Origin: Sphaerochaetaceae bacterium
GTDB lineage: Bacteria > Spirochaetota > Spirochaetia > Sphaerochaetales > Sphaerochaetaceae
DNA length: 64,000 nucleotides
Assembly (NCBI GenBank): GCA_028700425.1
Contig: JAQVSP010000001.1
Span: forward strand, 1,237-65,236
Direction of reading: 5' to 3'
Shown: positions 9,061 to 50,255 of the stretch, one piece after another
How the letters are laid out: each line of letters begins with the position of its first letter
Numbering within the stretch: position 1 is the first letter of the stretch
The notes under the pieces: model-generated
Seen by the model: the letters and a program-made list of their open reading frames with translations, nothing else
Told to the model about the DNA's origin: nothing
Databases searched by the model: none
Translations under genes and position numbers: made by a program

Positions 9061-10401
9061 CTACTCAGGTTTCACGCCCATTTGCTGCAAGAGCGCTGCC
9101 TGGTACTTTTTATTCTTGGCGATCTTCTTCATCTGAAGCCGCAATTTCTCAAATTTCTTCAATAGCCGGCTTACATCGCTGAGGTTGGTTCCGCTTCCCT
9201 TAGCAATTCTCTTCCGACGAGCCGGACCTATTATATAGGAATTCTTCCTTTCAGAAAAGGTCATTGACTGGATAATTGCCTTTTCTTGGAGCAATTCCTT
9301 CTTGTCAATGTCATCTTCGCTTATAGAGGCGCCCCCAGGAAGCATCTGGGCAAGCTTCTCGATGCCTCCCATCTTGGTCATGCTCTCCAGCTGCTCAAGG
9401 TAGTCCCCAAGATCGAAGGCGCTTTTGGCCATCTTCTCCTGAAGCTTGAGAGCCTTCTCCTGGTCGAAGGTCTCCTGGGCTTTCTCAACCAGGCTGACTA
9501 CATCTCCCATCCCAAGTATTCGGCTTGCGATGCGGTCTGGATAGAAGATCTCAAGATCCTCCATCTTCTCTCCGACTCCAATGAACTTGACCGGCTTGCC
9601 GACAACGCCCATGATGGACATGGCCGCTCCGCCTCTGGTATCAGAATCGAACTTGGAAAGGACCACTCCGGTTATTCCCACCTTCTGCTCGAATTCCTGG
9701 GCTATGATGACAGCATTCTGGCCAGTCATGGCATCGCTGACAAAGAGCTTCTCTTCGGGCTTGATGGCGCTGGCTATGTTCACGATCTCAGCCATGAGCT
9801 GGTCGTCAAGGTGCATTCTTCCGCTTGTATCGACGATCAAGGTGTCATACTGGCCCTTTCTCGCCTTTTCAAGAGCGTTGCGTGCAACCTTTACCGGGTC
9901 CTTGGCTCCTTCCTCGCTGTAGAGCGGAACCTTCACCTGGTCCGCAAGGATCTGAAGCTGAAGCACTGCTGCTGGACGAACCAGGTCGCAGGCTGCCAGC
10001 ATGACTCGCCTTCCCTGCCTTGAAAGCTTGAGAGCAAGCTTGGCTGCAGTTGTGGTCTTTCCAGAGCCCTGAAGGCCCATCATGAGTATGACGCTTGTTA
10101 CATCAGGTCCCTTCAGCTCCAGGTTCTGCGATCCTTCTCCGCCAAGAAGGCTCACCATCTTGTCATAGACGATCTTTACAAACTGCTGGCCAGGGTCAAC
10201 GGCATTCAGGACCTTCTCGCCCTTTGCCTCCTCTGCTGTCTGGTTTATGAAGCGCCTTACAACACGAAGGTTCACATCGGCATCTATAAGGGCCGTCTTG
10301 ATCACTTCCATGGCGTCGCTGATATTCTTCTCGGATATCTTGGACTTGCCTGAAAGGCTTCTTAAAAGATTGCTGAACTTCTGACTGAGTGACTCAAACA
10401 T
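9061..10401 (-). CDS. ffh: signal recognition particle protein Ffh
   Basis: GLQGSGKTTTAAKLA, DTSGR and SKFD G motifs, plus a Met-rich M domain. Confidence 0.95.
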   Translation of the reverse strand: MFESLSQKFSNLLRSLSGKSKISEKNISDAMEVIKTALIDADVNLRVVRRFINQTAEEAKGEKVLNAVDPGQQFVKIVYDKMVSLLGGEGSQNLELKGPDVTSVILMMGLQGSGKTTTAAKLALKLSRQGRRVMLAACDLVRPAAVLQLQILADQVKVPLYSEEGAKDPVKVARNALEKARKGQYDTLIVDTSGRMHLDDQLMAEIVNIASAIKPEEKLFVSDAMTGQNAVIIAQEFEQKVGITGVVLSKFDSDTRGGAAMSIMGVVGKPVKFIGVGEKMEDLEIFYPDRIASRILGMGDVVSLVEKAQETFDQEKALKLQEKMAKSAFDLGDYLEQLESMTKMGGIEKLAQMLPGGASISEDDIDKKELLQEKAIIQSMTFSERKNSYIIGPARRKRIAKGSGTNLSDVSRLLKKFEKLRLQMKKIAKNKKYQAALLQQMGVKPE

Positions 10402-25202: not shown

Positions 25203-25226
25203 TGTTAAACTCCTTGACAATGACAA

Positions 25227-25242
25227 TGCAAGAATCGTGCCA
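25227..25242 (-). promoter_or_regulatory. sigma-54 (RpoN) -24/-12 promoter
   Basis: Reverse strand reads TGGCACGATTCTTGCA, an exact match to TGGCACG-N4-TTGCW. The -12 GC lies 26 nt upstream of the sigma factor ATG. Confidence 0.75.
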
Positions 25243-25385
25243 AACAACATAACTCCACTAAATACATGATTTAATGCTTATTCTTGATAAGGATGCTAAG
25301 TTGAAACGGGTCATTTTAACCCATCTGCCTCAAAACATATAAAAAAAGGGTCATCTTGACACGTTTTTCTGCAGATTTATCAGAA

Positions 25386-36224: not shown

Positions 36225-38945
36225 ATGTCTAGTTTTTTAAGTAAGCTGTTCGGTTCTAAGAGTCAAAAGGATGAAAAAAAGCTTCTTCCTATAGTCGCGT
36301 CAGTAAACGCCCAGGAACAATGGGCGAAAAGTCTCAGCAAGGATGACTTTCCCAAGGCCACACAGGCCTTCAAGGAAGCCTTCAGCAAGGGCGAAAGCCT
36401 TGATTCCATGCTCCCCAAAGCCTTTGCGCTTGCTCGTGAAGCTGCTTTCAGGGTCCTTGGAGAAAGAGCCTACGATGTTCAGGTAATGGGATCCATCGTG
36501 CTTCACCAAGGCAACATCCTTGAGATGAAGACCGGTGAGGGCAAGACCCTCACCTCCGTTCCTGCCGCCTACCTCAATGCCATTGAGTCAAAGGGAGTCC
36601 ATATAGTCACAGTCAACGATTATCTTGCCCAACGCGACAGCCAGTGGATGGGGCCGGTGTTCCAGTACCTTGGGCTGACAGTTGGCTGCATACTCTCCTC
36701 AATGGACAATGAGGCCAGAAGGAAGGCTTATTCGGCCGACATCACCTACGGCACCAACAACGAGTTTGGCTTCGACTATCTCAGGGACAACATGAAGTCC
36801 CGCTTCAGCGACAAGATACAGCCTTCTCACCACTTCTGCATCATCGATGAGATTGACTCCATCCTCATAGATGAGGCAAGAACCCCCCTGATAATCAGCG
36901 GAGGCAGCGATGATGACACAATGCTTGCCATAAACGCCCAGAAGATCGTCTCCTACTTCACCGAGTGCGAGAAGGATCCTGAGACAGGAGACTACCCAGT
37001 CGAATCCCCTCTTGCTCGCTTTGATGCATCTGCCCAGGTGGAGATCAAGGGCGACTACATGGTCAATGAGAAGTCTCGCCACGTGACCTTCACCAAGCAA
37101 GGCATGGAGCACATGGAGGAGCTTCTCAAGCGCTTTGGGATCATAAGCTCCAGCATCTACGATGATGAGAACTTCGAGTACGTTCACTACGTGACCCAGG
37201 CTCTGACCGCACAGCTTCTCTACAAGAAGGATACAGACTACATAGTCAAGGACGGGGTTGTCCAGATAGTCGATGAGTTCACAGGGCGAATCCTTGAAGG
37301 CAGGCGCTACAGCGAAGGCCTTCACCAGGCCATTGAGGCCAAGGAGCACATAAAGGTCCTTGGCAGGTCGACCACCCTTGCAACCATCACCTTCCAGAAC
37401 TTCTTCAGAATGTATGAGAAGCTCAGCGGAATGACTGGAACAGCTGCAACAGAGGCAACTGAGTTCATGGAGATCTACGGACTTGACGTAGTGGTGGTTC
37501 CGACCAACCTTCCTGTTCAGCGAAAGGACCTGACAGACCTGGTCTACCTCAACGAGAGCTTCAAGTACAAGGCAGTCATCGAGGAGATAAGGCGCGTCCA
37601 TGCCACAGGCCAGCCAATACTTGTGGGAACCACAAGCATAGAGAAGAGCGAGTTCGTCAGTTCCCTTTTGCTTAAGTGCGGCATAAAGCACAATGTGCTC
37701 AATGCCAAGAACCATGCCCGCGAGGCTGCCATCATTGAGGAGGCCGGAAGGCTTGGAAGCGTCACCATATCCACCAACATGGCTGGTCGTGGAACCGATA
37801 TCAAGCTTGGAGGAAACCTTGAGGCCATGGCCAGAAGCCGCATGGCCGAGGATGCCAGCGAAGAGGCCGTGAAGGCCAAGATGGAGGAGCTCAGGCCTGC
37901 CTATCTCAAGGAATATGAACAAGTCAAGGCCCTTGGAGGCCTTTACATCCTTGGCACTGAGCGTCATGAGTCAAGAAGAATCGACAATCAGCTTCGAGGA
38001 AGATCCGGAAGACAGGGAGACCCAGGAATTTCACGCTTCATGGTAAGCCTGGACGATCCGCTGATGAGAATATTCGCAAAGGACAACATAAGAGTCCTTC
38101 TTGGACGGCTGGGGATGAACGATGGAACGCCTATCGAGAACTCAATGGTCGCCAAGACCGTGGAGAACGCCCAGAAGCAGGTCGAGGAGCGCAACTACGA
38201 GATCAGAAAGCACCTTCTTGAGTACGACAACGTTCTCAACGACCAGAGGAACTTCATCTACAGCCAGCGCGATTCCATACTCAGCGACGAGGCCCTGTTC
38301 GACAGGATCCTCAATGCTGCCTCCGAGTTTGTCGAGGACAGCCTGGAGGATACCCAGAAGCTCAGTCCTGAAGCCAGGGCGAAAAAAGCGCTTGCCGAGC
38401 TCAAGGAGACCCTGTCCTATGAGCCCTCAAGGGCCCTGGATGCAGCTGACCTGAAGGCAGACATCGAGAAGGACATAGAGCAGACTCTGAGAGCCAAGGC
38501 CTCCGCCCTGCCGCCACAGGTCTTCAATGAATACATAAGGATGATCTATCTCAGGCAGATAGACTCCCGCTGGCAGGAGCATCTCAACGAGCTTGAAGCC
38601 CTTCGCGATGCAGTGAGCCTAAGGTCCTATGCCCAGAAGAATCCGCTTCTTGAGTATAAGCTGGAAGGCTCCGATATCTTCGACGAGCTTCTCTATTCCA
38701 TCAAGAAAGCCGTCGTCAGGAGCATACTGCTTGTCAAGATCAATGTCTCAGCCTCACCCGTTCAGCGCCAGGCTCGCCCAATCATCCTTGGCAGGCCAGC
38801 AGCCGCCCCATCAAGCTCCCACGAAGCCCTTCCAGGCCAGCAGAGCGTGCAGGTTGTCAGGTCCAACCCCAAGGTAGGACGCAATGATCCCTGCCCTTGC
38901 GGATCGGGAAAGAAATACAAGAACTGCTGCGGACGCAACGCCTGA
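36225..38945 (+). CDS. secA: preprotein translocase ATPase SecA
   Basis: MSSFLSKLFGSKSQKDEKKL..., MKTGEGKTL Walker A, DEIDSILIDEARTPLIISG, and a C-terminal zinc motif CPCGSGKKYKNCCG. Start at the ATG at 36225. Confidence 0.95.
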   Translation: MSSFLSKLFGSKSQKDEKKLLPIVASVNAQEQWAKSLSKDDFPKATQAFKEAFSKGESLDSMLPKAFALAREAAFRVLGERAYDVQVMGSIVLHQGNILEMKTGEGKTLTSVPAAYLNAIESKGVHIVTVNDYLAQRDSQWMGPVFQYLGLTVGCILSSMDNEARRKAYSADITYGTNNEFGFDYLRDNMKSRFSDKIQPSHHFCIIDEIDSILIDEARTPLIISGGSDDDTMLAINAQKIVSYFTECEKDPETGDYPVESPLARFDASAQVEIKGDYMVNEKSRHVTFTKQGMEHMEELLKRFGIISSSIYDDENFEYVHYVTQALTAQLLYKKDTDYIVKDGVVQIVDEFTGRILEGRRYSEGLHQAIEAKEHIKVLGRSTTLATITFQNFFRMYEKLSGMTGTAATEATEFMEIYGLDVVVVPTNLPVQRKDLTDLVYLNESFKYKAVIEEIRRVHATGQPILVGTTSIEKSEFVSSLLLKCGIKHNVLNAKNHAREAAIIEEAGRLGSVTISTNMAGRGTDIKLGGNLEAMARSRMAEDASEEAVKAKMEELRPAYLKEYEQVKALGGLYILGTERHESRRIDNQLRGRSGRQGDPGISRFMVSLDDPLMRIFAKDNIRVLLGRLGMNDGTPIENSMVAKTVENAQKQVEERNYEIRKHLLEYDNVLNDQRNFIYSQRDSILSDEALFDRILNAASEFVEDSLEDTQKLSPEARAKKALAELKETLSYEPSRALDAADLKADIEKDIEQTLRAKASALPPQVFNEYIRMIYLRQIDSRWQEHLNELEALRDAVSLRSYAQKNPLLEYKLEGSDIFDELLYSIKKAVVRSILLVKINVSASPVQRQARPIILGRPAAAPSSSHEALPGQQSVQVVRSNPKVGRNDPCPCGSGKKYKNCCGRNA

Positions 38946-38952
38946 TTTAGGG

Positions 38953-38980
38953 CCAGTGGCTTCATTGCTGAAGCCACTGG
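38953..38980. terminator. 11-bp perfect hairpin between convergent secA and the LysM gene (no U-tract)
   Basis: CCAGTGGCTTC-ATTGCT-GAAGCCACTGG. Confidence 0.45.
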
Positions 38981-39032
38981 AAACCTTGATTGAGGAAGGC
39001 TTGCTGAGCTCTGCCTGAAAAATAAAGGAAGC

Positions 39033-40061
39033 TTAGAAGACCGAAGTAGGATCCAGGGCTATGTTGCTCTGCTCTACCTTGAAGTACAGGACGCTGTCAG
39101 CGCTGCTGTAGGCAATAGCCTTGCCCACTGTGCCGATTACAGTCTTGGCCTCGACAGTGTCGTCTGCCTTGACAGTGCAGGTGGCAAGGTTGATGTAGCT
39201 TGTAGTGTAAAGGCCATCATGGCTGATCTTCACAACATAGGCTCCAAGATCTGTATTCATGTCTGCAGATACTACAACTCCTCTTGCTGCAGCCTTCACC
39301 GGCTCATCAGCAATTCCCTGTATGTATATTCCTTCAAGGCTCGTGATCCTTCTAGTGAAAGGATCTGGGACTTTCTGGCCGAAGTAGACTATTGTGCGTC
39401 CGTCCATCGGGCTTGAGAACCTAAGGCCCCCTGCTGTCATGGATATGGAGGAAGCAGAGGTCTCGTCAGGAATGAAGAGGCTCTGGCCTGCCATGAGCTT
39501 GTCGGTTTCCAGTCCATTGATCTCCTGAAGGGCTATATAGCCTATGGAAAGGTCGAACTGAGTTGTTATGAAGCTAAGGGTATCTCCGCTTTGAACGGTG
39601 TAAAGAAAGCCATCCCGATCAGGAATCTGAAGAGTGTCGCCCTGCTTGAGAGCAGAAGGGTTTGTAATCTTGTTTACTGAGATGATCGTCCTTTCGCTTA
39701 TGCCAAAGGCCTGGCTTATCTTGGCAAGCGTATCATCGCCAGTCACGATGTATTTCTGATACTGGACGCTTGAGCCTGAGGATGCGGGCTTTATGCTGTC
39801 CAGCCCAACTGCCTTGTCCTGGCTCTCTTGGGGCTGGGCAGCCTGTGCGACTGGGGAGGCTGGAGCTTCCGGCTCAACCGGATTCGCAATTGCTGGTTCA
39901 GGGGTGACAGCCTCGACAGGAGCTTCAGGGCGTGTGAGAACGTAGATAAGCACAGCTGCACATACAAGAAGGGCAAGAGACAATATGGCGACAATCAAGA
40001 TCATCCTAAGGTTGGCGCTGAGCTTCCTTGGTCCCTGAAGGTCATCATAATCATTTGCCAT
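39033..40061 (-). CDS. LysM-repeat protein with a degenerate M23/LytM domain
   Basis: N-terminal TM, Pro/Ala-rich linker, and two LysM repeats (YIVTGDDTLAKISQAFGI; YTVQSGDTLSFITTQF). The C-terminal LytM fold has lost the HxxxD and HxH zinc ligands (IYIQG, YINL, VLYFKVE). Confidence 0.8.
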   Translation of the reverse strand: MANDYDDLQGPRKLSANLRMILIVAILSLALLVCAAVLIYVLTRPEAPVEAVTPEPAIANPVEPEAPASPVAQAAQPQESQDKAVGLDSIKPASSGSSVQYQKYIVTGDDTLAKISQAFGISERTIISVNKITNPSALKQGDTLQIPDRDGFLYTVQSGDTLSFITTQFDLSIGYIALQEINGLETDKLMAGQSLFIPDETSASSISMTAGGLRFSSPMDGRTIVYFGQKVPDPFTRRITSLEGIYIQGIADEPVKAAARGVVVSADMNTDLGAYVVKISHDGLYTTSYINLATCTVKADDTVEAKTVIGTVGKAIAYSSADSVLYFKVEQSNIALDPTSVF

Positions 40062-40109
40062 AACGGGCCTCCTATCGACTTTTAACAGCTACAATACTAC
40101 AATATTCCC

Positions 40110-41723
40110 ATGGCAAATACCAGTCGCAAAAGCACTTTTTACTTTCTTAGCTTTCTCCTTGCCCTTATTGCCATGATTGTCCTGATCATCCATTCTGCAG
40201 CGATAATCCTAGGCGGCGCATCCAAGGCCTATGACGACCCCCTGGTCGCACAGTCCTTCTCAAGAGGAAACATCTATGATGCAAAAGGCCGGCTGATTGC
40301 CACGGACAAGACTATGTGGACCTTGTCGGTTCTTTTGAAGAAGGCTGATGACCTGCCTGCAATAGCAGCCTTCATAGCCCCTTTTACAGACCAGACCCCC
40401 GAGCAGGTTCTTCAGATATGCTCTGGCTATGAGACCTTTGCAAGGATCACAAGGCAATTTGATCCCTCTCGGGTCGAAAGCTTTCTAGCAAAGTCAAGAA
40501 AGAATGGCTATGCCAATGCTCTTGTTCTGGAGCCCTACCAAGGAAGATACTATCCCTACAGCTATCATGCTGCAAACCTTATCGGCTTTGTCGGTTGGGA
40601 TGGCTTTGGCCTGGAAGGCATTGAGCTGAGCTATGAAAGCTGGCTCAGGGCCAAGGGCAAGCTTGGAGAGGCTTTCAGCCAGGGCTCAGACCTCTATCTA
40701 AGCCTGGACATGGACATCCAGTACGCCCTCGATGTAGCCATCCAGGCAATGGTTGATGAGAATCCCTGCGACTTTGCAGTGGCAATGATTGTCTCCTCCT
40801 CGACAGGAGAGATAGCTGCATGCACTTCATGGCCATGGTATAATCCGAACCGCTACTGGACCTACAGTGATGATAAGCGCAACAATCTTGCCTTCAACGC
40901 TGCCTTTGAGCCTGGATCGGTATTCAAGGTCTTCTCGCTGGCTTCAGCGCTTGAGGCTGGGACAGCTGACTTTGATGCCAGCTTTCATTGCGATGGCTCC
41001 TACACCTTCACCCACAACGGCCAGAGCTTCACGATTACCTGCCATTCAGCCCATGGGGATATAGACATTGATTCCATGATAGCCAAGTCCTGCAATGCCG
41101 CTGCAGCGCACTGGGCTCTTCAGACAGAGGACGCTGCATTTCTTGAGACCCTGACAAGCCTTGGCTTCTCCAAGGCACCTCAGACAAGGCTTCCAGCTAC
41201 AAGCGGCGTGGTATACCCAATCTCCAGGTGGTCTGCCAGAAGCAAGGCTACAATGGCCTTTGGACAGGAGCTGACAGCATCAGCCCTGCAGCTCTGCATG
41301 GCCGCCACGGCCATAGCCAACGATGGGCGCAGGCTTGATCCAGTTCTTGTAAAGAGCATAGAAAGCGATGGTGAATCCGTATTCAAGGCAGTTCTGGGCA
41401 CAGGACCGCAGGCCTTGTCAGCCTCCACCGCCCAGAGAGTGCTTGAGGCCATGTCAACGGCTACAGGCAAGGGCGGAACAGCAGTGCTTGCACAGGTCGA
41501 GGGCATAGAGGTTGCTGCCAAGACAGGCACTTCCCAGCTTCTTGGAACCGAAGGCGGAAACCTGGCCTCTACTCTTGCCATTGTACCAGGCTATGTGATC
41601 TACATAGCCGCCTACAACCCACAAGGCTCAACCATTTGGGGAGCGAACATTGCAAGCCCTGCAATAGCCGATGTGGTCAAGGCAATGGCAAGCCAGGGGC
41701 TTATCAGATACGAAGGGACTTGA
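40110..41723 (+). CDS. class B penicillin-binding protein (transpeptidase)
   Basis: N-terminal TM, PBP dimerisation region, and intact SxxK (SVFK), SxN (SCN) and KTG (KTGTSQ) motifs. Confidence 0.85.
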   Translation: MANTSRKSTFYFLSFLLALIAMIVLIIHSAAIILGGASKAYDDPLVAQSFSRGNIYDAKGRLIATDKTMWTLSVLLKKADDLPAIAAFIAPFTDQTPEQVLQICSGYETFARITRQFDPSRVESFLAKSRKNGYANALVLEPYQGRYYPYSYHAANLIGFVGWDGFGLEGIELSYESWLRAKGKLGEAFSQGSDLYLSLDMDIQYALDVAIQAMVDENPCDFAVAMIVSSSTGEIAACTSWPWYNPNRYWTYSDDKRNNLAFNAAFEPGSVFKVFSLASALEAGTADFDASFHCDGSYTFTHNGQSFTITCHSAHGDIDIDSMIAKSCNAAAAHWALQTEDAAFLETLTSLGFSKAPQTRLPATSGVVYPISRWSARSKATMAFGQELTASALQLCMAATAIANDGRRLDPVLVKSIESDGESVFKAVLGTGPQALSASTAQRVLEAMSTATGKGGTAVLAQVEGIEVAAKTGTSQLLGTEGGNLASTLAIVPGYVIYIAAYNPQGSTIWGANIASPAIADVVKAMASQGLIRYEGT

Positions 41724-42642
41724 CCTTATCCATTAAAAGCGATGCTGAGGCCAGCTTGAAGCCCTGCTCAGGAACGCTGGAGTCCTGAAGGCAGTAGGCC
41801 TTCAGGCCATGAGCGTGCAAGAAGCTCAGCGACATTCCTATGTCCTTTGCCAGGTCCAGCTTTGTTATGGCTGCACAGCTGAAGGGGAACAGGGTGCATA
41901 GCTTGTCCATCTGCTCAAGGTTATCAGGATCGGATGCATCTATTACAAGACAGTATCTTGGGTTCATTGGAGAGAGCACGGAGGCTATGGCATCCACATC
42001 CTCCTTCGTCTCTGGATAGAAGCAGTCGATTATATTGTGCTGTGCGTTGGCAGAGGCCTGCACATCTTCCTTGGTATGGCCAATCTCAAGCCTGGAAAGC
42101 TTGACCTTCTCGGCTGTGTACCTTTGGGTGTACAAGGCCAGAAGGTTGCTGCATATCAGGGACTTGCCCGAATTTGCAAGCCCAAGTATGGCAAGGGCCT
42201 GAGGACAGTAGAGCTGGGTCTGTACGTCGATATCGATGACAGACCTTATATACGAATACAGGGTATGCTCGATGCTGAGGTTGTCTGCATCCTTGATCAT
42301 GGAGGTCAGGGCTTCCAGTGCGCTGTCAATATAGTCAGAGGAGAAGCCGTTGTCCTCAAGAAGAGATCTTGCATACTGGGACTGTGGATCCTCGTTTCCG
42401 CTTTTTCTGCTCTTGAAGGTCTTTGCCTCAAACTCGAAGCGGTCGATGACAGTGGCTTCATTGTCGTCCTTCTTGGCATTCTGAGGGATGAAGCAAAGGA
42501 TCTCGCAGCGAGGCTTGGACAAGAAGAGAAACCCTCTGTAGAAGTCGCGCCTCTGGTGGACGACTATATTCCATCCATATCGTCGGCGTGCCTTCTTCAG
42601 CGCGTTCTCATAGCTGTCTGCCTCTACTGCAAAGAATTCCAC
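41704..42642 (-). CDS. FlhF-like SRP-family GTPase homologue with degenerate G motifs
   Basis: GTG start overlapping the hslU stop by 1 nt. N-terminus MEFFAVEADSYENALKKARRRYGWNIVV...GFLFL resembles the spirochaete FlhF B-domain. G1 is GLANSGKS, G3 is DASD in place of DTAG, and G4 is ITKLD...GMSLSFL...VPEQGF. The assignment comes from motif comparison only. Confidence 0.55.
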   Translation of the reverse strand: MEFFAVEADSYENALKKARRRYGWNIVVHQRRDFYRGFLFLSKPRCEILCFIPQNAKKDDNEATVIDRFEFEAKTFKSRKSGNEDPQSQYARSLLEDNGFSSDYIDSALEALTSMIKDADNLSIEHTLYSYIRSVIDIDVQTQLYCPQALAILGLANSGKSLICSNLLALYTQRYTAEKVKLSRLEIGHTKEDVQASANAQHNIIDCFYPETKEDVDAIASVLSPMNPRYCLVIDASDPDNLEQMDKLCTLFPFSCAAITKLDLAKDIGMSLSFLHAHGLKAYCLQDSSVPEQGFKLASASLLMDKVKSLRI

Positions 42643-44021
42643 TATAGTATGTACCTCGAAAGATCCAGGTTCTTCACCAGCGATCCAAGCCTTTCATCCA
42701 CATAGCTTGGGGTGATGGTTATGCTCTGCCCTCCAAGCTTGTCGGCATTGAAGCTCAAGTCCTCAAGCAGCGTCTCCATGACAGTGTAGAGCCTTCTTGC
42801 GCCGATGTTCTCTGTATTGCAGTTCACATCATAAGCAATTTCGCTGATTCTATGAAGAGCCTCATCAGTGAAGATCAGGTTTACATCCTCTGTCTTCAGC
42901 AGCTGAATGTACTGCAGGGTTATGGCATTCTCGGGCTCTGTAAGGATCCTGTAGAAATCCTCTGCCTTCAGGTCGGAAAGCTCGACGCGCAGCGGGAATC
43001 TTCCCTGAAGCTCAGGGATAAGGTCGCTGGGCTTGCTTACTGAGAAAGCTCCGGCTGCGATGAAGAGTATGTGGGTTGTGTCGATAACACCCCACTTCGT
43101 GTTCACCTTGCTTCCCTCGACAATCGGCAGTATGTCCCTCTGGACTCCTTCGCGGGATATGTCAGGAGAGGAGGAGTTGGCGTTCTTGCCGGCTATCTTG
43201 TCGATCTCGTCGATGAAGACTATTCCCATCTGCTCGGTTCTTTCCTTTGCAATATCAATGAGCTTGTCCTTGTCGACGCTTCGATCGGTCTCATCCTCTC
43301 TGAAGATCTCCCTAGCCCTCTTGACTGTGACCTTCTTCTTCTTTCTCTGCCCTGCAGGGCCAAGGGAGCCGAATATCGAGCCGAGGGAGTTGACTGCATT
43401 CTGAAGATCCTCAGGACCTCCCTGGCCTGCAAGCTCGATGCCGAACTTTGGAGCCGGTCCATCTATCTCCACCTCGCGATCCTCAAGAAGGCCCTCGCGA
43501 AGCATCTGCCTGAAGCTCTCCCTGGTTGCGGGCTTGCTCTGGTCGAACTGAGCTGAGCCGGAGGCCTCTGGCCTGAGGTTGGGAAGCAGGGCATCAAGAA
43601 GCCTCTCCTCCACCTTTGAATTGACTGCCTCGGTGTTGCTTGAGGCCAGTTCGTTCTTGACCAGGCTTATGGCGCTTGCCATAAGATCCCTTATTATGGA
43701 CTCAACATCTCGGCCTACATATCCCACCTCTGTGTACTTTGTGGCCTCAACCTTTATGAAAGGCGCGCTTGACAGCTTTGCAATCCTTCTGGCTATCTCA
43801 GTCTTTCCGACTCCAGTGGATCCAATCATGATGATGTTCTTCGGGAAGACCTCATCTCTCATGCCTTCCCCAAGCCTTTTTCGCCTTGTCCTGTTTCGAA
43901 GAGCCACGGCTATTATCCTCTTGGCCCTGTCCTGTCCTATTATGTACTTGTTAAGCTGCTCTACGATCTGCGATGGTGTCATGTCATCCATGTTGATCTG
44001 TGGGCTTGGCAATTGATTCAT
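42642..44021 (-). CDS. hslU: ATP-dependent protease ATPase subunit HslU
   Basis: MTPSQIVEQLNKYIIGQDRAKR, GSTGVGKTEIARR Walker A, FIDEIDKI Walker B. Confidence 0.95.
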   Translation of the reverse strand: MNQLPSPQINMDDMTPSQIVEQLNKYIIGQDRAKRIIAVALRNRTRRKRLGEGMRDEVFPKNIIMIGSTGVGKTEIARRIAKLSSAPFIKVEATKYTEVGYVGRDVESIIRDLMASAISLVKNELASSNTEAVNSKVEERLLDALLPNLRPEASGSAQFDQSKPATRESFRQMLREGLLEDREVEIDGPAPKFGIELAGQGGPEDLQNAVNSLGSIFGSLGPAGQRKKKKVTVKRAREIFREDETDRSVDKDKLIDIAKERTEQMGIVFIDEIDKIAGKNANSSSPDISREGVQRDILPIVEGSKVNTKWGVIDTTHILFIAAGAFSVSKPSDLIPELQGRFPLRVELSDLKAEDFYRILTEPENAITLQYIQLLKTEDVNLIFTDEALHRISEIAYDVNCNTENIGARRLYTVMETLLEDLSFNADKLGGQSITITPSYVDERLGSLVKNLDLSRYIL

Positions 44022-44022
44022 A

Positions 44023-44571
44023 CTACTTTCTTCCTTCTAGATGGTCGCTTATGATGTTGTGATTTGTATATATGCAGATGTCAGCAGCAATTGAAACCGC
44101 CTTTCTGGCTATCTGCTCCGCTGTAAGGTCGTTGGGATAATCCAGGTAGGCCCTTGCTGCGCTCTGGGCGTAGTTGCCGCCGCTTCCAATCCCTATAGCG
44201 TCATACTCTGGCTCAAGTATGTCTCCTGCTCCGGAAACATAGAAGAGCTTGTCTCCATCGCTTGCCAGTATTACTGCCTCAAGCTTGCGATAGTTCCGGT
44301 CCATTCGCCATTCACGAGCCAGGCTGATTATAGCCTTTGAAAGGTCCCCTGAGGCTTCCTTAAGCTTGGACTCAAAGAGGTCGAAGAGAACAAAGGCATC
44401 GGCGACTGTGCCGGCAAAGCCTGTGATTATCTTATCATCAAAGATCCTTCGGATCTTTCTTGAGTTTCCCTTGACAACTGTATCGCCGCTTGTAGCCTGT
44501 CCATCGCCAGCTATGGCGACCACGCCGCCCTTGCGCACGGCGCATATTGTTGTTCCTTCCAGCTTATTCAT
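44023..44571 (-). CDS. hslV: ATP-dependent protease subunit HslV
   Basis: MNKLEGTTICAVRKGG (catalytic Thr) and GSGGNYA. Start trimmed to the ATG at 44571 (GGAG upstream). Confidence 0.9.
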   Translation of the reverse strand: MNKLEGTTICAVRKGGVVAIAGDGQATSGDTVVKGNSRKIRRIFDDKIITGFAGTVADAFVLFDLFESKLKEASGDLSKAIISLAREWRMDRNYRKLEAVILASDGDKLFYVSGAGDILEPEYDAIGIGSGGNYAQSAARAYLDYPNDLTAEQIARKAVSIAADICIYTNHNIISDHLEGRK

Positions 44572-45460
44572 CGCTCTTTCTCCCATGTGGATGGCTTGCG
44601 TTATAGACATCCCTTAATCTTTTGCTTGACACATGAGTGTAGATCTGGGTGGTGGATATGCTGCTGTGTCCCAGCATCTCCTGCACAAGCCTTATCCCAG
44701 TGTCGTTGTCCAGCATATGAGTTGCAAAGCTGTGGCGCAGAGTGTGGGGAGAAAACTGCTTGGTAAGCCCCATTTCTTCCTTGGTCCTGTAAAAAATACA
44801 ATGAACTTGTGAAACAGACAACTGTTTTCCCTTTGAATTCAGAAAAAGCCATCTCTGCTCATCAGTGCACAGCGTGCCTCGAAGCTTCAGGTATTGTCTG
44901 AGTACCTGCTCACACCTTGGCGTGAAAAAGCACCAGCGCTGTTTGCTCCCCTTTCCAGTGACTAGAATCTGCCTTGCCTCAAGGTCCATGTCATCCAGCC
45001 TTGCATCTATGGCTTCGCTGAGCCTGCAGCCTGTGCTGTAGAAGAAGTTGAACAGGGCAAGGCTCAGCAGATCGTCATAGCTTTCCCAGTCTCTGTTGAT
45101 CAGCCTTGATACCTCCTCCTCGCTCAGGACGCTTGGAAGCCTTCGCTGTCTCTTCGTGGAAGCTATGCGTGCAAAGGGATTCGACTTGAGCCGCATATGG
45201 GAGCATTGATAGGAGAAGAAGCTTCTCAGGGCGCAGAGCATGCGGTTTGTCGAGGAGACGGCCAGGCCCTTGGAAAGAAGCTCTCCGGAGAGCTGGCGTG
45301 CATCCTGGTAGGTGAAGTCCTCCAGGCTTATTGATCTAAGCCTAGTGAACTCAACAAGATGGCTCAGGTCCCTTCGATAGGCATCTACAGTGTTTTGACT
45401 CTTGCCTCCTACATTTCTCAGGAACTCCAGATAGTCCTTGACTTCCTTTTCAGTATCCAT
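44564..45460 (-). CDS. xerC: tyrosine recombinase XerC/CodV-like
   Basis: N-terminal SAM-like domain (SQNTVDAYRRDLSHL) and C-terminal R..HxxR..Y residues (TLRHSFATHML...GHSSISTTQIYTHV). The symbol is assigned from its position immediately upstream of hslV. Confidence 0.75.
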   Translation of the reverse strand: MDTEKEVKDYLEFLRNVGGKSQNTVDAYRRDLSHLVEFTRLRSISLEDFTYQDARQLSGELLSKGLAVSSTNRMLCALRSFFSYQCSHMRLKSNPFARIASTKRQRRLPSVLSEEEVSRLINRDWESYDDLLSLALFNFFYSTGCRLSEAIDARLDDMDLEARQILVTGKGSKQRWCFFTPRCEQVLRQYLKLRGTLCTDEQRWLFLNSKGKQLSVSQVHCIFYRTKEEMGLTKQFSPHTLRHSFATHMLDNDTGIRLVQEMLGHSSISTTQIYTHVSSKRLRDVYNASHPHGRKSDE

Positions 45461-45464
45461 GGCT

Positions 45465-46223
45465 CTAGAATATATCAAAACCCACCTTGATGAGAAGCAT
45501 GGCCATGACAATGAGCATCATAGGCTTTACAGCCGCAGCTCCTTTCTTGACCACAAGCCTGGAGCCCAGGAAATTGCCAAGCATTGAGCAAAGCGCACAG
45601 GGGATGGCGACCTGGTAGACCACAACCTTATTGATTATGAATGTTGCCAGCGCCGCTGCATTGCTTGACAGGTTCACCAGCTTGGCATTGCCGCAGCTTT
45701 TCCTGGAATCCAAGGATATAACCAAGGCAAACATCAAGGTCAGGAACATCCCGGTCCCAGGCCCAAAGAAGCCGTCATAAAATCCAATGAGGATTGAGAA
45801 GGCCAGGCATATAAGGATTCTCGCACCTGTAATCCTGACCTCTCTGCCTTCATGGTCCCAGTCCTTCTTGAAGATAGTTATTACAGCAAGCGCCGGCACA
45901 AGGATGAAAAGCATTATTGCAAAGGCCTTTTCGTCCATCAGCAGCGAAACCCTGGAGCCGAAGGCCGAGCCCACGAAGGCGCCAATTACGCTGGATACAG
46001 CTGTCCTTGGCTCAAAATCCCTCTCATGAACGTACTGGGCTGAGGCAATCAGGCTTCCGCTGAAGGAGGAGAACTTATTGGTGCCCAGGGCATAATGGGA
46101 CGGAATGCCAAAGGCTACATAGGCCGAAAGGCTTATCAAGCCACCCCCTCCTGCAATTGAATCAATAAAGCCGGCCAGCCCGACAATCAGGCATAGAATA
46201 ACCAGCATCCAGCCGTCAATCAT
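45465..46223 (-). CDS. TauE/SafE family anion exporter membrane protein
   Basis: 252 aa, about 8 TM helices, Gly-rich repeats (GGGGLISL, GPGTGMF). Confidence 0.75.
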   Translation of the reverse strand: MIDGWMLVILCLIVGLAGFIDSIAGGGGLISLSAYVAFGIPSHYALGTNKFSSFSGSLIASAQYVHERDFEPRTAVSSVIGAFVGSAFGSRVSLLMDEKAFAIMLFILVPALAVITIFKKDWDHEGREVRITGARILICLAFSILIGFYDGFFGPGTGMFLTLMFALVISLDSRKSCGNAKLVNLSSNAAALATFIINKVVVYQVAIPCALCSMLGNFLGSRLVVKKGAAAVKPMMLIVMAMLLIKVGFDIF

Positions 46224-47106
46224 CCTTGCGCTCCTTTGACAGAGGATGATGCTTCAGGAACTCCCTTTTCAGATCATCGTTGTCTACATGGGTATAGATC
46301 TGGGTTGTTCTCAGGTCGCTGTGTCCAAGAAGCTCTTGGACGACCCTGAGATCAGCTCCTCCGCGAAGCATATGGGTGGCATAGCTGTGGCGCAGGGTAT
46401 GGACCTTTGCGTTTACTCCGCAGGCCTCTCTAATCTGGGAGAAGCGCTTCCATATCTCAGCTCGGGTGAGCTTGTTGCCTCTCCTTCCTATAAAAAGGCT
46501 GGAGCATTTAGGCTTAAGAAGGGGCCTAGAATAGCGAAGGTACTGGTCAAGCCTTTCCATGGCAACCTGCCCTATGGGAACACGCCGTTCCTTGTCGCCC
46601 TTTCCGATTACCCTGAGGCTTGCCTGGCGCAGGTCCAGGTCGCTTAGCTTAAGGGAAGCTGCCTCGCTTATCCTAAGACCGCAGGAATAAATCAGCTCAA
46701 AGAGAGTCCTGTCCCTGATGGAAAGCGGATCTTCGCCCTTTATTGAGTCGAGAAGCTTGTCTACATCATCGTAGTCCATGGCCTTGATCATTGGTCTTGA
46801 GACCTTGGTCTTCATTACAAGAAGATCTGGGTTGTCTGGCCTTATATCCTCATCCTGTATGTAGCGAAAGAAGCTTGCAAGGCTTGTCTGAATGCGAGAA
46901 ACGGTCCTTGGACAAAGACCGTTTCCCCTCTTGCTGATATAAGCCTCTATGTCTGAGGCATCTACGTCCTCAATTTCCTTGTCTAGGCTCTGCAGAAAAA
47001 GCCGAGCCTCTCTTTTGTAGCTCTCTATAGTAGCCTTGGCAAGCCTTCTCTCTATCAGAAGATGGCTTGCATAAGCATCCAGAAGGTCGCTGTAGGCTGG
47101 GCTCAT
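46216..47106 (-). CDS. xerD: tyrosine recombinase XerD-like
   Basis: ERRLAKATIESYKREARLFL, plus TLRHSYATHMLRGGADLRVVQELLGHSDLRTTQIYTHV. Start trimmed to the ATG at 47106 (ATGA overlap with the ftsZ stop). Confidence 0.75.
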   Translation of the reverse strand: MSPAYSDLLDAYASHLLIERRLAKATIESYKREARLFLQSLDKEIEDVDASDIEAYISKRGNGLCPRTVSRIQTSLASFFRYIQDEDIRPDNPDLLVMKTKVSRPMIKAMDYDDVDKLLDSIKGEDPLSIRDRTLFELIYSCGLRISEAASLKLSDLDLRQASLRVIGKGDKERRVPIGQVAMERLDQYLRYSRPLLKPKCSSLFIGRRGNKLTRAEIWKRFSQIREACGVNAKVHTLRHSYATHMLRGGADLRVVQELLGHSDLRTTQIYTHVDNDDLKREFLKHHPLSKERKDD

Positions 47107-48299
47107 TGCTCGTTTTTCTTTGCACCATAGCGCAGTATTGCTGGAACGCTGAAGTCCTTGAGATCGGCATCCCTGTAGCCGCCCTGGCTTGAGATCTTGT
47201 TCTGAAGATCCTGCCAACGGTTGACGGTTATAACCTCAGGCTTGGGCACTGTAGGCTCAGGAGCCTTGTAAGGCTTGTCCTGCTCGCCAGCTGCCGAGGC
47301 TGAAGCTTCCTCGAAGGTAGGCTCAGCTGCCTTGAAGCCGGTGGCTACCACGGTGACCTTTATCTGGTCTCCAAGCTCAGGCTTGAAGGCCTGGCCGCTG
47401 ATAATAAGGGCCTCTGGATCGCACTTCTTGCTGATAAGGTCCACCACAACCTGGTATTCCTCAAGAGTAAGGTTCTCTCCTCCTGTCAGGTTTACAAGAA
47501 CAGCCTTGGCTCCTTCTATTGTGGCATTCTCTAAGAGAGGATTGCTTATAGCCTGGGTTGCAGCATCTACAGCCCTGTTGGCTCCCTCGCCAAGCCCGAT
47601 GCCCATCAGGGCATCGCCCTTGTTGCTCATGACAGTTCTCACATCGGCAAAGTCGATGTTTATCTCGCCGGGCTCAGTTATGAGCTCGGTTATTCCCTGA
47701 ACGCCCTGGCGAAGCACATCGTCAGCCATCAGGAAGGCCTGCTTTATCGGGGTGGCCTTGTCTGCAACCTTCAAGAGGTACTGGTTTGGGATGAGGATCA
47801 TGGTGTCCACGTTCTTGCGAAGCTTCTCGATTCCCACCTGGGCAAGCTCAAGCTTCTTCTTTCCCTCAAAGGAGAACGGCGTGGTTACAACAGCTACGGT
47901 CAGAATGCCCTCGGCTCGCGCTACCTCGGCGACAATTGGAGCGGCTCCAGTGCCGGTGCCGCCGCCCATGCCTGCGGTTATGAAGACCATATCAGTGCCC
48001 TGGAGGATCTTTCGGATCTCCTCCTTGGACTCTATTGCGGCCTTCTCACCCACTTCCGGCACGCCGCCTGCTCCCAGCCCGCCTGTAAGCTCCTTTCCAA
48101 TTGGAAGCCTGATCTGGGCGTTGGACCTGTATAGAGCCTGCATGTCTGTATTCATCGCTACATAGGTGACCTTCTTAAGGCCATTGAGAATCATGCGATT
48201 TACAGCATTGCCGCCTGCCCCTCCAACACCGACAACCTTTATATCGGTTGGTGTTACGGGCTCTTCATATACTAGGTCTTCAACCATTCCAAAATCCAT
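47103..48299 (-). CDS. ftsZ: cell division protein FtsZ
   Basis: IKVVGVGGAGGNAVNRM and GGGTGTGAAP tubulin signature. Start trimmed to the ATG at 48299. Confidence 0.95.
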   Translation of the reverse strand: MDFGMVEDLVYEEPVTPTDIKVVGVGGAGGNAVNRMILNGLKKVTYVAMNTDMQALYRSNAQIRLPIGKELTGGLGAGGVPEVGEKAAIESKEEIRKILQGTDMVFITAGMGGGTGTGAAPIVAEVARAEGILTVAVVTTPFSFEGKKKLELAQVGIEKLRKNVDTMILIPNQYLLKVADKATPIKQAFLMADDVLRQGVQGITELITEPGEINIDFADVRTVMSNKGDALMGIGLGEGANRAVDAATQAISNPLLENATIEGAKAVLVNLTGGENLTLEEYQVVVDLISKKCDPEALIISGQAFKPELGDQIKVTVVATGFKAAEPTFEEASASAAGEQDKPYKAPEPTVPKPEVITVNRWQDLQNKISSQGGYRDADLKDFSVPAILRYGAKKNEQ

Positions 48300-48309
48300 A
48301 TCTACCTCT

Positions 48310-49557: not shown

Positions 49558-50255
49558 TCCTCCGAAGCTTCTTGCACAAGTGCATCTTCATATAAGCTGA
49601 ACCGGCCATCTGAGACAGGGCTTTGCTGAACCTTGGCCCAGGCTGCATTGAGCTTGGCCAAGCCAACTGGGTCCTTGACGCTTAGGCTTGCTCTATCTGA
49701 ATAGAATGTCCAGGTTCCAAAATCTTCATCTGGATTATACACATAATCCTGACGGCATATCAAGGATTGTGACTGATCAAGGTTCTCGTTATAGACTCCT
49801 ATGATCCAAAGGCTCTCATCCATCCGCTTGTCCTGAAGCCAATTCATATACACAGGCTGGCACTCAAGCACCCTATGATGCTCAAGCTTCCCCAGCTCTG
49901 CCTTTCGCATATAGTCAGCCTGTGTGCACACGGCCATGCAGGATTCTCCATCGGTTGCAGCAAGCAAGCCGTCCCTGTAGGCTATGCTCACCACAAGCTC
50001 GCCTGGGAACTGGAACTCGACAAAGAATCTTTCTATGAAGGGATCGTTTGCAAAATGCGCCTTTGCCTTGCTTGAAGCTGAGAAGAGGCTCTTTCCTCTT
50101 AGGCCTTCCAGATACTTTATGTCAGCACCTTCAATGCCGGGGTTGCTTGTATTCAGCTGAAGCTTTCGAAAGCTCATTGTCATGTAGACCAGAAGGCCAA
50201 GGAGGATGACTATCAAGACCGAGACAGTTATTAGCAAGGCTGTCTTTTTCTTCAT
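49554..50255 (-). CDS. FtsQ/DivIB-like cell division protein
   Basis: Single N-terminal TM (KKKTALLITVSVLIVILLGLLVY), located between ftsW and ftsA. Start trimmed to the ATG at 50255 (ATGA overlap with ftsW, GGAG upstream). Confidence 0.6.
   Translation of the reverse strand: MKKKTALLITVSVLIVILLGLLVYMTMSFRKLQLNTSNPGIEGADIKYLEGLRGKSLFSASSKAKAHFANDPFIERFFVEFQFPGELVVSIAYRDGLLAATDGESCMAVCTQADYMRKAELGKLEHHRVLECQPVYMNWLQDKRMDESLWIIGVYNENLDQSQSLICRQDYVYNPDEDFGTWTFYSDRASLSVKDPVGLAKLNAAWAKVQQSPVSDGRFSLYEDALVQEASEE

What the first reader, a model, noticed from the sequence alone, without database searches (positions are those of the whole stretch)
41704..42642. Degenerate FlhF-like GTPase as the only gene where the flagellar super-operon normally follows hslVU
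This 312-aa protein has an FlhF-type N-terminus (MEFFAVEADSYENALKKARRRYG...GFLFL). It also has an SRP-GTPase core in which G1 (GLANSGKS) and G4 (TKLD) survive but G3 is DASD instead of DTAG.

Its GTG start overlaps the hslU stop by 1 nt. In Bacillus subtilis, codV-clpQ-clpY-codY precede the fla/che operon. As I recall, in Borrelia burgdorferi hslV-hslU are followed by the flgB motility operon, which carries flhA-flhF near its distal end.

Here xerC-hslV-hslU is followed only by this gene, and no flagellar or chemotaxis gene occurs anywhere in the 64 kb. Two readings are possible. It may be a relic left after deletion of flgB-to-flhA in a non-flagellated spirochaete lineage. Or it may be an FlhF paralogue repurposed as a flagellum-independent polar or division landmark. 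It ends the dcw-xer-hslVU transcription unit and converges on a PBP gene.
Basis: partly seen in the sequence, partly recalled or inferred. Interest (0 to 1): 0.65.

Follow-up and report, generated by a model that had tools for sequence, protein, structure and literature searches.

The report
Degenerate FlhF kept without flagella
This gene is a decayed copy of FlhF, the GTPase that positions flagella, and it is kept right after hslVU in a spirochaete family whose cultured members have no flagella, which suggests FlhF has a job unrelated to flagella.

Summary
The ORF is real: 41704..42642, minus strand, 312 aa, with a GTG start sharing one base with the hslU stop. It is a true FlhF relative. Its N-terminus matches the FlhF model TIGR03499 (E 1.4e-9), and it aligns end to end with FlhF-like proteins. 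An AlphaFold model (pLDDT 89) matches solved FlhF structures best.

It is not a one-off. In seven loci from other assemblies, labelled Sphaerochaetaceae, Sphaerochaeta sp. or Spirochaetales where a label exists, the same gene directly follows hslU and converges on the same PBP gene. In four Treponema-like loci, hslU is instead followed by flgB-flgC-fliE-fliF-fliG-fliH-fliI. Five Bacillales loci show the same genes about 1 kb further downstream.

About half of the family keeps all GTPase motifs. The window's copy is among the most decayed:
- the G2/insertion-box segment is deleted;
- G5 is lost;
- only the Walker A motif and TKLD (G4) remain.

The reading frame is intact (chance about 1e-6), and the N-terminal domain is the best-kept part.

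Best reading: a retained FlhF orthologue that no longer hydrolyses GTP. Its function is unknown. The absence of flagella in this particular genome is inferred, not shown.

The parts
41704..42642 (-). FlhF-like gene, 312 aa: a degenerate positional orthologue of the Sphaerochaetaceae FlhF-like gene
   Evidence: ORF. TIGR03499 E 1.4e-9. Aligns end to end with the family. AlphaFold pLDDT 89.4. Best Foldseek match is FlhF 8r9r, E 2.1e-12.
42478..42642 (-). N-terminal domain, residues 1-55 (beta-alpha-beta-beta). It is homologous to the conserved FlhF N-terminus, which in Shewanella is the FliG-interacting domain. It is the best-conserved part of the protein.
   Evidence: TIGR03499 positions 1-65. 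pLDDT 88-96. Window versus family: 34% identity here against 20% in the G domain. FliG-interacting domain per PMC12826062.
42403..42471 (-). Disordered linker, residues 58-80, containing the FEFEAKT motif (residues 69-75)
   Evidence: pLDDT below 50 for residues 58-80. F69, E70, E72, A73 and T75 are invariant in alignment A2.
42160..42183 (-). G1 / Walker A, GLANSGKS (residues 154-161). The Lys and Ser are kept, but the SRP-type GxxGxGKT pattern is broken (G to N at the fourth position).
42043..42105 (-). Residues 180-200, the remnant of the G2/insertion-box region. About 25 residues are deleted, and the catalytic DxFRxGAxEQ motif is absent.
   Evidence: Alignment A1, motif table, pairwise alignment with Sphaerochaeta sp. 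P0218.
42016..42033 (-). G3 position, IIDCFY (residues 204-209). The Asp is kept, but the Thr and Gly of DTxG are lost.
41854..41865 (-). G4, TKLD (residues 260-263), retained
42642..44021 (-). hslU. Its TAG stop overlaps the GTG start of the FlhF-like gene by 1 nt, which suggests translational coupling.
44023..44610 (-). hslV
44564..45511 (-). xerC
40110..41723 (+). Class B penicillin-binding protein, convergent with the FlhF-like gene. The 3' ends overlap by 20 nt. It is the conserved neighbour in four of the seven related loci.

Best explanation
The gene is the local, heavily decayed orthologue of FlhF, and I read it as a pseudo-GTPase kept for a flagellum-independent role.

Origin (inferred). 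In the spirochaete ancestor, xerC-hslV-hslU was followed by the flgB flagellar superoperon, with flhF near its far end. In the Sphaerochaetaceae lineage the flagellar genes were lost, and flhF ended up fused to the end of the hslVU transcription unit.

State in the group (shown). Many members keep a fully canonical SRP-type GTPase. Several sublineages, including this one, have lost the catalytic G2 insertion box and have lost G3 and G5 to varying degrees.

State in the window (shown). The protein keeps:
- a folded N-terminal FlhF-type domain;
- a disordered linker;
- an NG scaffold with the P-loop Lys/Ser, the G3 Asp and TKLD.

Mechanism (inferred). It may still bind guanine nucleotide. It cannot form the composite active site of the GTP-dependent FlhF homodimer. 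FlhG is also not next to it, and FlhG is absent from cultured relatives. The protein most likely acts as a hydrolysis-dead adaptor through its conserved N-terminal domain. It is co-expressed with hslVU, and its partner is no longer FliG.

Shown: homology, fold, synteny, motif losses and ORF integrity. Inferred: the deletion history, nucleotide binding, the adaptor role and the absence of flagella in this particular genome.
For: Homology:
- TIGR03499 FlhF, E 1.4e-9, on residues 1-64.
- All 30 aligned family members hit TIGR03499.
- The family profile scores FlhF structures at 1.2e-46 and 4e-45, against 2.6e-29 or weaker for SRP54 and FtsY.
- AlphaFold model pLDDT 89.4. The best Foldseek match is S. 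putrefaciens FlhF.

Synteny:
- hslU-FlhF-like with no flagellar neighbour in L003, L005, L006, L086, L088/L089 and L090/L091.
- The convergent PBP follows in L006, L088/L089 and L090/L091. L005 and L086 end at the gene.
- Source names for these proteins or contigs are Sphaerochaetaceae bacterium, Sphaerochaeta sp. UBA5836, Ca. Ornithospirochaeta and Spirochaetales.
- Treponema-like loci carry hslU-flgB-flgC-fliE-fliF-fliG-fliH-fliI (-fliJ in L007 and L008).
- Borrelia flhF lies in the flgB superoperon (PMC10802407).

Lineage: the five cultured non-spiral spirochaetes lack FlgB, FlgC, FliF, FliG, FlhA, FlhB, FlhG and others, but FlhF is not on that lost list (PMC12236494 Table S6).

Maintenance:
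- Open frame, P about 1e-6 by chance. GC3 of 0.645 resembles hslU at 0.637.
- The window matches 40 of 84 family-consensus positions, against about 27% overall identity.
- The N-terminal domain is the best-conserved region.

Decay: motif table and census. Only 24 of 55 family members keep all of G1-G4.
Against: - No Pfam SRP54 hit, and the TIGR03499 score of 38 bits is far below the 174-bit cut-off.
- The protein evolves very fast: 26-33% identity to orthologues whose HslU is 60-76% identical.
- The only close relative is 99.8% identical at the DNA level and differs by 2 synonymous and 2 non-synonymous changes. Purifying selection in this sublineage is therefore not demonstrated.
- The window copy is among the shortest full-length family members.
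- No experiment or partner protein is known.
- The flagellar inventory of this genome and of the related MAGs could not be made.
- Treponema loci end the hslU-linked operon at fliJ, so the single-deletion scenario needs a Borrelia-like contiguous ancestor. I did not show that.
Confidence: 0.6

Rival explanations
1. Decaying relic. The gene lost its function when the flagellum was lost. In this sublineage it is drifting toward pseudogenisation. It is still an open frame only because it is translationally coupled to hslU and has not yet been hit by a stop or frameshift.
For: - Loss of G2, G3 and G5, and a deletion of about 25 aa in the insertion box.
- The G domain is only 20% identical to the family.
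- No Pfam hit.
- 2 non-synonymous to 2 synonymous differences against the twin contig.
- Repeated motif loss in other sublineages suggests relaxed constraint on the GTPase.
Against: - With roughly 70% of residues replaced, a neutral sequence would be expected to carry about 14 stops, yet the frame is open.
- Replacements spare family-consensus positions: 40 of 84 are kept.
- The AlphaFold model is confident for a complete NG fold plus the N-terminal domain.
- The start codon, the coupling to hslU and coding-type GC3 are preserved.
- Every related locus examined still has an intact gene.
Confidence: 0.27
2. Working flagellar FlhF. The organism is flagellated, its flagellar genes lie outside the 64 kb window, and this gene positions flagella as usual.
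For: - Only 64 kb of the genome was seen.
- FlhF-type N-terminal domain.
- JGI and UniRef automatically name relatives 'flagellar biosynthesis protein FlhF'.
Against: - No flhA or flhG neighbour, and no flgB operon after hslU, where four flagellated spirochaete loci have it.
- The catalytic motifs are lost.
- The synteny is that of Sphaerochaeta sp. and Sphaerochaetaceae MAGs. Cultured members of that family lack FliG, FliF, FlhA and FlhG (PMC3372971; PMC12236494 Table S6).
Confidence: 0.05
3. Not FlhF-derived. The gene is a divergent duplicate of Ffh or FtsY, or another P-loop NTPase that happens to lie after hslU.
For: Weak single-sequence hits to G-alpha, ABC transporter and phosphoribulokinase families. 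Foldseek scores for SRP54 and FtsY are close to those for FlhF.
Against: - The N-terminal FlhF-specific match.
- The family profile prefers FlhF by 17 orders of magnitude.
- All 30 family members hit TIGR03499.
- A normal Ffh is already present at 9061..10401.
Confidence: 0.03

Closest known systems
FlhF (third SRP-type GTPase; TIGR03499; structures 2px0 from B. subtilis and 8r9r from S. putrefaciens)
   Same: B-N-G architecture: a conserved N-terminal domain, a disordered linker and an NG fold. FlhF is the best structural and profile match. The window protein keeps the P-loop Lys, the G3 Asp and TKLD.
   Different: - No G2/insertion-box catalytic motif.
- G3 is DCFY, and G5 is lost.
- The TIGR03499 score is far below the family cut-off, and there is no Pfam SRP54 hit.
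- It is not next to flhA or flhG, and no flagellar genes are nearby.
- At 312 aa it is short, with a short linker.
Canonical FlhF-like proteins of Sphaerochaetaceae MAGs (for example P0100 'Sphaerochaetaceae bacterium' = L006, and L005 from MAG RUG14151)
   Same: Same locus (hslU-gene, then convergent PBP, M23/LysM, secA, where the contig extends that far), same N-terminal domain, same overall fold. These are positional orthologues.
   Different: Those proteins keep GPTGxGKTTT, DSFRxGAYEQ, DTIGxSP and TKTDET and hit Pfam SRP54 at 1e-36. The window protein has lost these motifs apart from Walker A and TKLD, and is only 27-29% identical.
Borrelia burgdorferi FlhF (BB0270) in the flgB superoperon
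   Same: Spirochaetal FlhF. In Borrelia the flgB operon bb0294-bb0264 contains flhF (PMC10802407). That hslU (bb0295) lies immediately upstream is my own knowledge of the B31 annotation.
   Different: [quoted passage not shown] Here all those neighbours are missing.
Pseudo-GTPases / pseudoenzymes in general
   Same: A conserved fold with lost catalytic residues, possibly retaining nucleotide binding and working as a scaffold.
   Different: No biochemical data exist for this protein. This label is an inference from the motifs.

Membership tests
FlhF (TIGR03499 equivalog) | Conserved N-terminal FlhF motif/domain (B-domain start; the FliG-interacting domain in Shewanella) | tested here: met
   TIGR03499 positions 1-65 match residues 1-64, E 1.4e-9. 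The model shows a folded beta-alpha-beta-beta domain with pLDDT 88-96.
FlhF (TIGR03499 equivalog) | Whole-protein score above the curated cut-off (174.15 bits) | tested here: not met
   38.3 bits
FlhF (TIGR03499 equivalog) | SRP-type NG-domain fold | tested here: met
   AlphaFold pLDDT 89.4 using the family alignment. Foldseek: FlhF 8r9r E 2.1e-12, FlhF 2px0 E 3.5e-10, SRP54/FtsY about 1e-10. Caveat: the model was guided by the family alignment.
FlhF (TIGR03499 equivalog) | Intact GTPase motifs G1-G5, including the insertion-box G2 (DxxR...Q) and G3 (DTxG) | tested here: not met
   G1 is GLANSGKS (Walker A only). The G2 region is deleted. G3 is DCFY. G4 TKLD is kept. G5 is lost.
FlhF (TIGR03499 equivalog) | Gene neighbourhood with flhA, flhG or other flagellar genes | tested here: not met
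   No flagellar Pfam hit or tblastn match in the 64 kb window. The neighbours are hslU and a PBP gene.
FlhF (TIGR03499 equivalog) | Role in flagellar placement or number; GTP-dependent homodimer stimulated by FlhG | not testable with these tools
   Needs biochemistry and genetics. FlhG is listed as absent from cultured non-spiral spirochaetes (PMC12236494 Table S6).
Pfam SRP54 (PF00448) | Hit above the gathering threshold | tested here: not met
   No hit even at E up to 10. The orthologues in L005 and L006 hit at about 1e-36.
hslU-linked FlhF-like group of Sphaerochaetaceae (defined here) | Lies immediately 3' of hslU, with the same flanking genes where the contig extends that far, and aligns end to end with group members | tested here: met
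   Window HslU is 61-71% identical to the HslU of these loci, against 59% to Treponema.

The most novel reading that the evidence does not exclude
FlhF has a flagellum-independent function that was sufficient to keep the gene across the Sphaerochaetaceae after every other flagellar gene, including its partners FliG and FliF and its activator FlhG, was lost. That function would reside mainly in the conserved N-terminal 'FliG-interacting' domain together with the NG scaffold. It would not need GTP hydrolysis, as shown by natural hydrolysis-dead variants such as the window protein. The N-terminal domain would then bind a new, or an ancestral but overlooked, partner, for example a pole, envelope or secretion factor.
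Probability: 0.35. Interest if true: 0.75.

Novelty: new variant of a known kind. Interest (0 to 1): 0.55.

Why it matters
FlhF is regarded as a dedicated flagellar landmark protein. Its known partners are FliG/FliF, FlhG, HubP and FipA.

Here a whole bacterial family whose cultured members lack flagella, FliG, FliF, FlhA and FlhG still keeps an flhF orthologue. The copies range from fully canonical to catalytically dead. This offers two things:

- Comparative evidence that FlhF may do something outside flagellar assembly.
- A set of natural separation-of-function variants showing which parts matter for that role. The N-terminal domain, Walker A and TKLD are kept. G2, G3 and G5 are dispensable.

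The locus also marks where the flagellar superoperon was removed during the loss of spirochaete motility. Neither of the two comparative papers on non-spiral spirochaetes that I checked mentions FlhF, and no paper in the searchable library discusses it in Sphaerochaeta.

Tried and rejected
- **Single-sequence searches.** The Pfam, PDB-sequence and word-index homologue searches gave nothing useful. Only the exhaustive phmmer search recovered the family.
- **Single-sequence AlphaFold.** The model was useless, with pLDDT 36.
- **Profile search with alignment A1.** Common P-loop words swamped the candidate list, and only 3 proteins were returned.
- **The one allowed genome-contig scan.** I spent it on HslU.
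- **dN/dS.** The only close relative differs at 4 sites in the gene, which gives no power.
- **Promoter and terminator scan.** Nothing above the shuffle expectation.
- **Rejected: DASD as G3.** The alignment places it on the strand after G3.
- **Rejected: the dcw-cluster context as evidence for a division role.** The same order precedes hslVU in all the Sphaerochaetaceae-type loci that extend that far, so the context is inherited.
- **Considered: the PBP neighbour as a sign that this is not a Sphaerochaeta-type organism.** PMC3372971 reports no PBPs in Sphaerochaeta. However, the locus carrying a protein that NCBI assigns to Sphaerochaeta sp. (L090) has the same PBP.
- **Distrusted: the NJ tree grouping of degenerate members.** It is probably long-branch attraction. 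HslU similarities pair a degenerate member with a canonical one twice: L088 with L006, and L086 with L005, at 76% each.
Full report
**1. The observation**

The ORF is present as described: 41704..42642 on the minus strand, 312 aa, beginning MEFFAVEADSYENALKKARRRYG. Its GTG start shares one base with the TAG stop of the upstream gene, reading ...CTATAGTG.... That upstream gene is hslU by its Pfam AAA_2 match and position, and it is preceded by hslV (Pfam Proteasome) and xerC.

Further upstream lies a complete division and cell-wall cluster: mraZ, mraW, murF, mraY, ftsW, an ftsQ-sized ORF, ftsA, ftsZ, xerD and a TauE-family gene. Downstream, a class B penicillin-binding protein gene (40110..41723, plus strand) converges on the ORF, with a 20-nt overlap of the 3' ends.

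None of the 49 ORFs of at least 150 aa that I scanned matches a flagellar or chemotaxis Pfam family. tblastn with eight Treponema flagellar proteins finds nothing better than E 0.59 in the window. A normal Ffh is present at 9061..10401.

The frame is not open by chance. Shuffles of the gene carry 13.6 in-frame stops on average, giving P(0) of about 1e-6. The GC3 value of 0.645 matches that of hslU, 0.637.

**2. Is it FlhF-like?**

Taken alone, the sequence is hard to place:
- Pfam SRP54 does not hit it at all.
- The PDB sequence search gives only noise.
- NCBIfam TIGR03499 (FlhF) matches residues 1-64 to model positions 1-65 at E 1.4e-9, but at 38 bits against a cut-off of 174.

An exhaustive phmmer search of 1.84 billion representative proteins found 63 relatives. 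These are 24-37% identical and mostly 330-470 aa long. The window protein aligns with them from the first residue to the last (alignment A1).

Three results place this family in the FlhF branch of the SRP-type GTPases:
- All 30 aligned members hit TIGR03499.
- A profile of the alignment scores the two solved FlhF proteins at 1.2e-46 and 4e-45, against 2.6e-29 or weaker for SRP54 and FtsY.
- With this alignment, AlphaFold gives a confident model (mean pLDDT 89.4). It shows a folded N-terminal beta-alpha-beta-beta domain (residues 1-55), a disordered linker (58-80) and an NG domain. Its best Foldseek match in the PDB is Shewanella FlhF (8r9r, E 2.1e-12), followed by SRP54, FtsY and Bacillus FlhF.

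**3. The GTPase motifs, and one correction**

Read from the alignment, the motifs are as follows:

| Motif | Family consensus | Window protein |
|---|---|---|
| G1 | GPTGxGKTTT | GLANSGKS (Walker A with Lys/Ser kept; SRP-type pattern broken) |
| G2 / insertion box | DxFRxGAxEQ plus the following helix and strand | about 25 residues deleted |
| G3 | LIDTxG | IIDCFY, residues 204-209 |
| G4 | TKxD | TKLD, kept |
| G5 | TDGQxVPxDI | QDSSVPEQGF, lost |

It aligns with the conserved 'SAS/SAT' strand between G3 and G4.

The protein keeps the residues that usually contact nucleotide and Mg: the P-loop Lys and Ser, the G3 Asp, and the Asp of G4. It lacks those that SRP-type GTPases use for hydrolysis in the dimer.

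**4. It is not an isolated oddity**

Looking up where relatives are encoded shows the same arrangement repeatedly. In every case the FlhF-like gene comes immediately after hslU, and no flagellar gene is in view:

| Locus | Protein | GTPase motifs |
|---|---|---|
| L003 | P0002 | canonical |
| L005 (rumen MAG RUG14151; HslU 71% identical to the window's) | — | canonical |
| L006 (identical to P0100, 'Sphaerochaetaceae bacterium') | P0100 | canonical |
| L086 | P0006 | degenerate |
| L088/L089 ('Sphaerochaetaceae bacterium', GCA_050950065.1) | P0003 | degenerate |
| L090/L091 (WP_293910702.1, 'Sphaerochaeta sp. UBA5836') | P0218 | G3 degenerate |

L005 and L086 end at or just after the gene. In L006, L088/L089 and L090/L091 the gene is followed by the convergent PBP, an M23/LysM gene and secA. 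L088-L091 continue with murG, cvpA, holB and a histidine kinase with a sigma-54 regulator, as in the window. In L003 the convergent neighbour has no Pfam match, but secA, cvpA, holB and the kinase follow. The window and L090 even share the TauE gene between the two xer genes.

A search with the canonical L006 protein returned 994 relatives at E 1e-10 or better. The best 120 listed all carry Pfam SRP54. Those with names come from Sphaerochaetaceae or Spirochaetales MAGs.

**5. What sits at this position elsewhere**

In four flagellated-type spirochaete loci, hslU is followed at once by flgB-flgC-fliE-fliF-fliG-fliH-fliI. These loci are two Treponema MAGs, one Treponematales MAG and one Spirochaetaceae MAG. 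L007 and L008 also show fliJ.

Five Bacillales loci show the same flagellar genes about 1 kb after hslU. This fits the known codV-clpQ-clpY-codY-fla/che order of B. subtilis, which I state from my own knowledge.

In Borrelia burgdorferi the 'flgB operon' runs from bb0294 to bb0264. It contains flhF (bb0270), followed by flhG and flgV (PMC10802407). That hslU is bb0295 is also my own knowledge.

One caveat applies. In the Treponema loci the hslU-linked operon ends at fliJ. A single flgB-to-flhA deletion therefore requires a Borrelia-like contiguous ancestor, which I did not demonstrate.

**6. Is the lineage non-flagellated?**

The evidence is indirect:
- The synteny and protein similarities are those of Sphaerochaetaceae. 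HslU is 61-71% identical to those loci against 59% to Treponema. FtsZ is 71% and SecA 63% identical to Sphaerochaeta sp..
- Cultured Sphaerochaeta have no motility or chemotaxis genes by tBLASTn (PMC3372971).
- A 2025 comparative study lists genes absent from the five cultured non-spiral species. The list includes FlgB, FlgC, FlgE, FliF, FliG, FliM, FliI, FliP, FlhA, FlhB, FlhG/YlxH, FliA, FlaA/B and CheB/R/W. FlhF is not on that list and is never mentioned in the text (PMC12236494 Table S6).

That omission is what one would expect if flhF is quietly retained. I found no paper that discusses FlhF in Sphaerochaeta.

**7. Relic or working gene?**

The family evolves fast: FlhF-like proteins are 26-46% identical where HslU is 60-76% identical.

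Motif loss is common. Of 52 members of at least 312 aa:
- 50 keep Walker A;
- 42 keep G4;
- 37 keep the SRP-type G1;
- 34 keep G3;
- 25 keep G2.

Of all 55 members, 24 keep G1 through G4 together.

The HslU similarities pair a degenerate member with a canonical one twice: L088 with L006, and L086 with L005, each at 76%. The decay therefore seems to have happened several times independently. The NJ tree that groups degenerate forms together is probably long-branch attraction.

This pattern indicates relaxed constraint on hydrolysis, which is plausible once the activator FlhG is gone.

Several observations argue against simple decay:
- Every locus examined has an intact gene.
- The N-terminal domain is the best-conserved region. 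Mean pairwise identity is 38% there, against 31% in the G domain and 15% in the linker. For the window against the others, the figures are 34% against 20%.
- The window protein keeps 40 of 84 family-consensus positions despite about 27% overall identity.

For the window's own sublineage the test has no power. The only close relative (Logan contigs L001 and L002, 99.8% identical over 15.9 kb) differs by 2 synonymous and 2 non-synonymous changes in this gene. That ratio is like its neighbours'.

**8. Most likely mechanism**

The N-terminus of FlhF is the FliG-interacting domain in Shewanella. The NG domain forms a GTP-dependent homodimer whose hydrolysis is stimulated by FlhG (PMC12826062).

FliG and FlhG are absent from the cultured relatives, and no flhG lies nearby. 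I therefore infer that the family works independently of flagella.

I further infer that the window protein is a hydrolysis-dead scaffold. It may still bind nucleotide, and it would act through its N-terminal domain, possibly with the linker motif FEFEAKT. It is translated together with HslU.

The position at the end of the dcw-xer-hslVU block is inherited, so it says nothing about a role in division. I give about 0.6 to 'retained orthologue, pseudo-GTPase with some flagellum-independent role' and about 0.27 to 'relic on its way out'. The remainder goes to a flagellated host or a non-FlhF origin.

**9. Comparison, novelty and score**

The protein works like, and descends from, FlhF. It fails several membership criteria: the family score cut-off, the G2, G3 and G5 motifs, and the flagellar neighbourhood. 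It is best described as a degenerate member of an hslU-linked FlhF-like group of Sphaerochaetaceae, which makes it a new variant of a known kind.

The more interesting finding is at the level of the whole group. A flagellar landmark GTPase has outlived the flagellum, and its partner-binding domain is the part best preserved. This makes a flagellum-independent FlhF function testable in a cultivable genus. Interest: 0.55.

Noticed in passing
window 42409-42438 (residues 69-78, minus strand); alignments A1 and A2: A short motif, F-E-x-E-A-x-T-P-x-P, lies in the disordered linker of many Sphaerochaetaceae FlhF-like proteins. In the window it reads FEFEAKTFKS, and F69, E70, E72, A73 and T75 are invariant in A2. 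It looks like a short linear binding motif.
   Followed up: no
window 40110-41723 (+): A class B PBP (PBP_dimer plus Transpeptidase; best NCBIfam matches SpoVD and PBP2, both far below cut-off) is present and conserved next to the FlhF-like gene. It is also present in a locus whose protein NCBI assigns to Sphaerochaeta sp. (L090). This is unexpected, because cultured Sphaerochaeta were reported to lack PBPs (PMC3372971), and MrdA and PBP-3 are listed as absent or lost in PMC12236494 Table S6.
   Followed up: partly
window 24351-25250 (-): A short (299 aa) sigma-70 family factor with regions 1.2, 2, 3 and 4. Its best matches are RpoD C-terminal and RpoS models, all below cut-off, and it is not FliA. 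PMC12236494 Table S6 lists an 'RpoD' orthologous group and FliA as absent from non-spiral spirochaetes.
   Followed up: partly
window 44564-47217 (-): Two tyrosine recombinase genes (xerD-like at 46216-47217 and xerC-like at 44564-45511) flank a TauE/SafE-family membrane protein gene (45465-46223), between ftsZ and hslV. Relatives have dprA at this spot, either instead of TauE (L086) or in addition to it (L090).
   Followed up: partly
loci L033, L034, L044, L056, L083 (Bacillales) and L007-L010 (spirochaetes): The linkage of xerC-hslV-hslU to flgB-flgC-fliE-fliF-fliG-fliH-fliI is shared by Bacillales and spirochaetes, so it is an old arrangement. In the two Treponema loci the hslU-linked operon stops at fliJ, where a convergent 552-aa ORF follows.
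   Followed up: partly
window 49554-50444 (-), 14495-15490 (+), 2581-3171 (-), 6341-6832 (-): Four ORFs of 163-331 aa have no Pfam or NCBIfam match. The first sits in the ftsQ position between ftsW and ftsA. In relative L086 the gene at that position has a weak POTRA_1 hit.
   Followed up: no
window 36769-52642 versus L001: Two Logan assemblies (SRR16980862 and SRR16980863) carry the same region at 99.8% nucleotide identity, with 28 differences in 15.9 kb. The organism therefore recurs in independent samples. Apart from these, the protein has no relative above 37% identity among about 15 billion proteins.
   Followed up: partly
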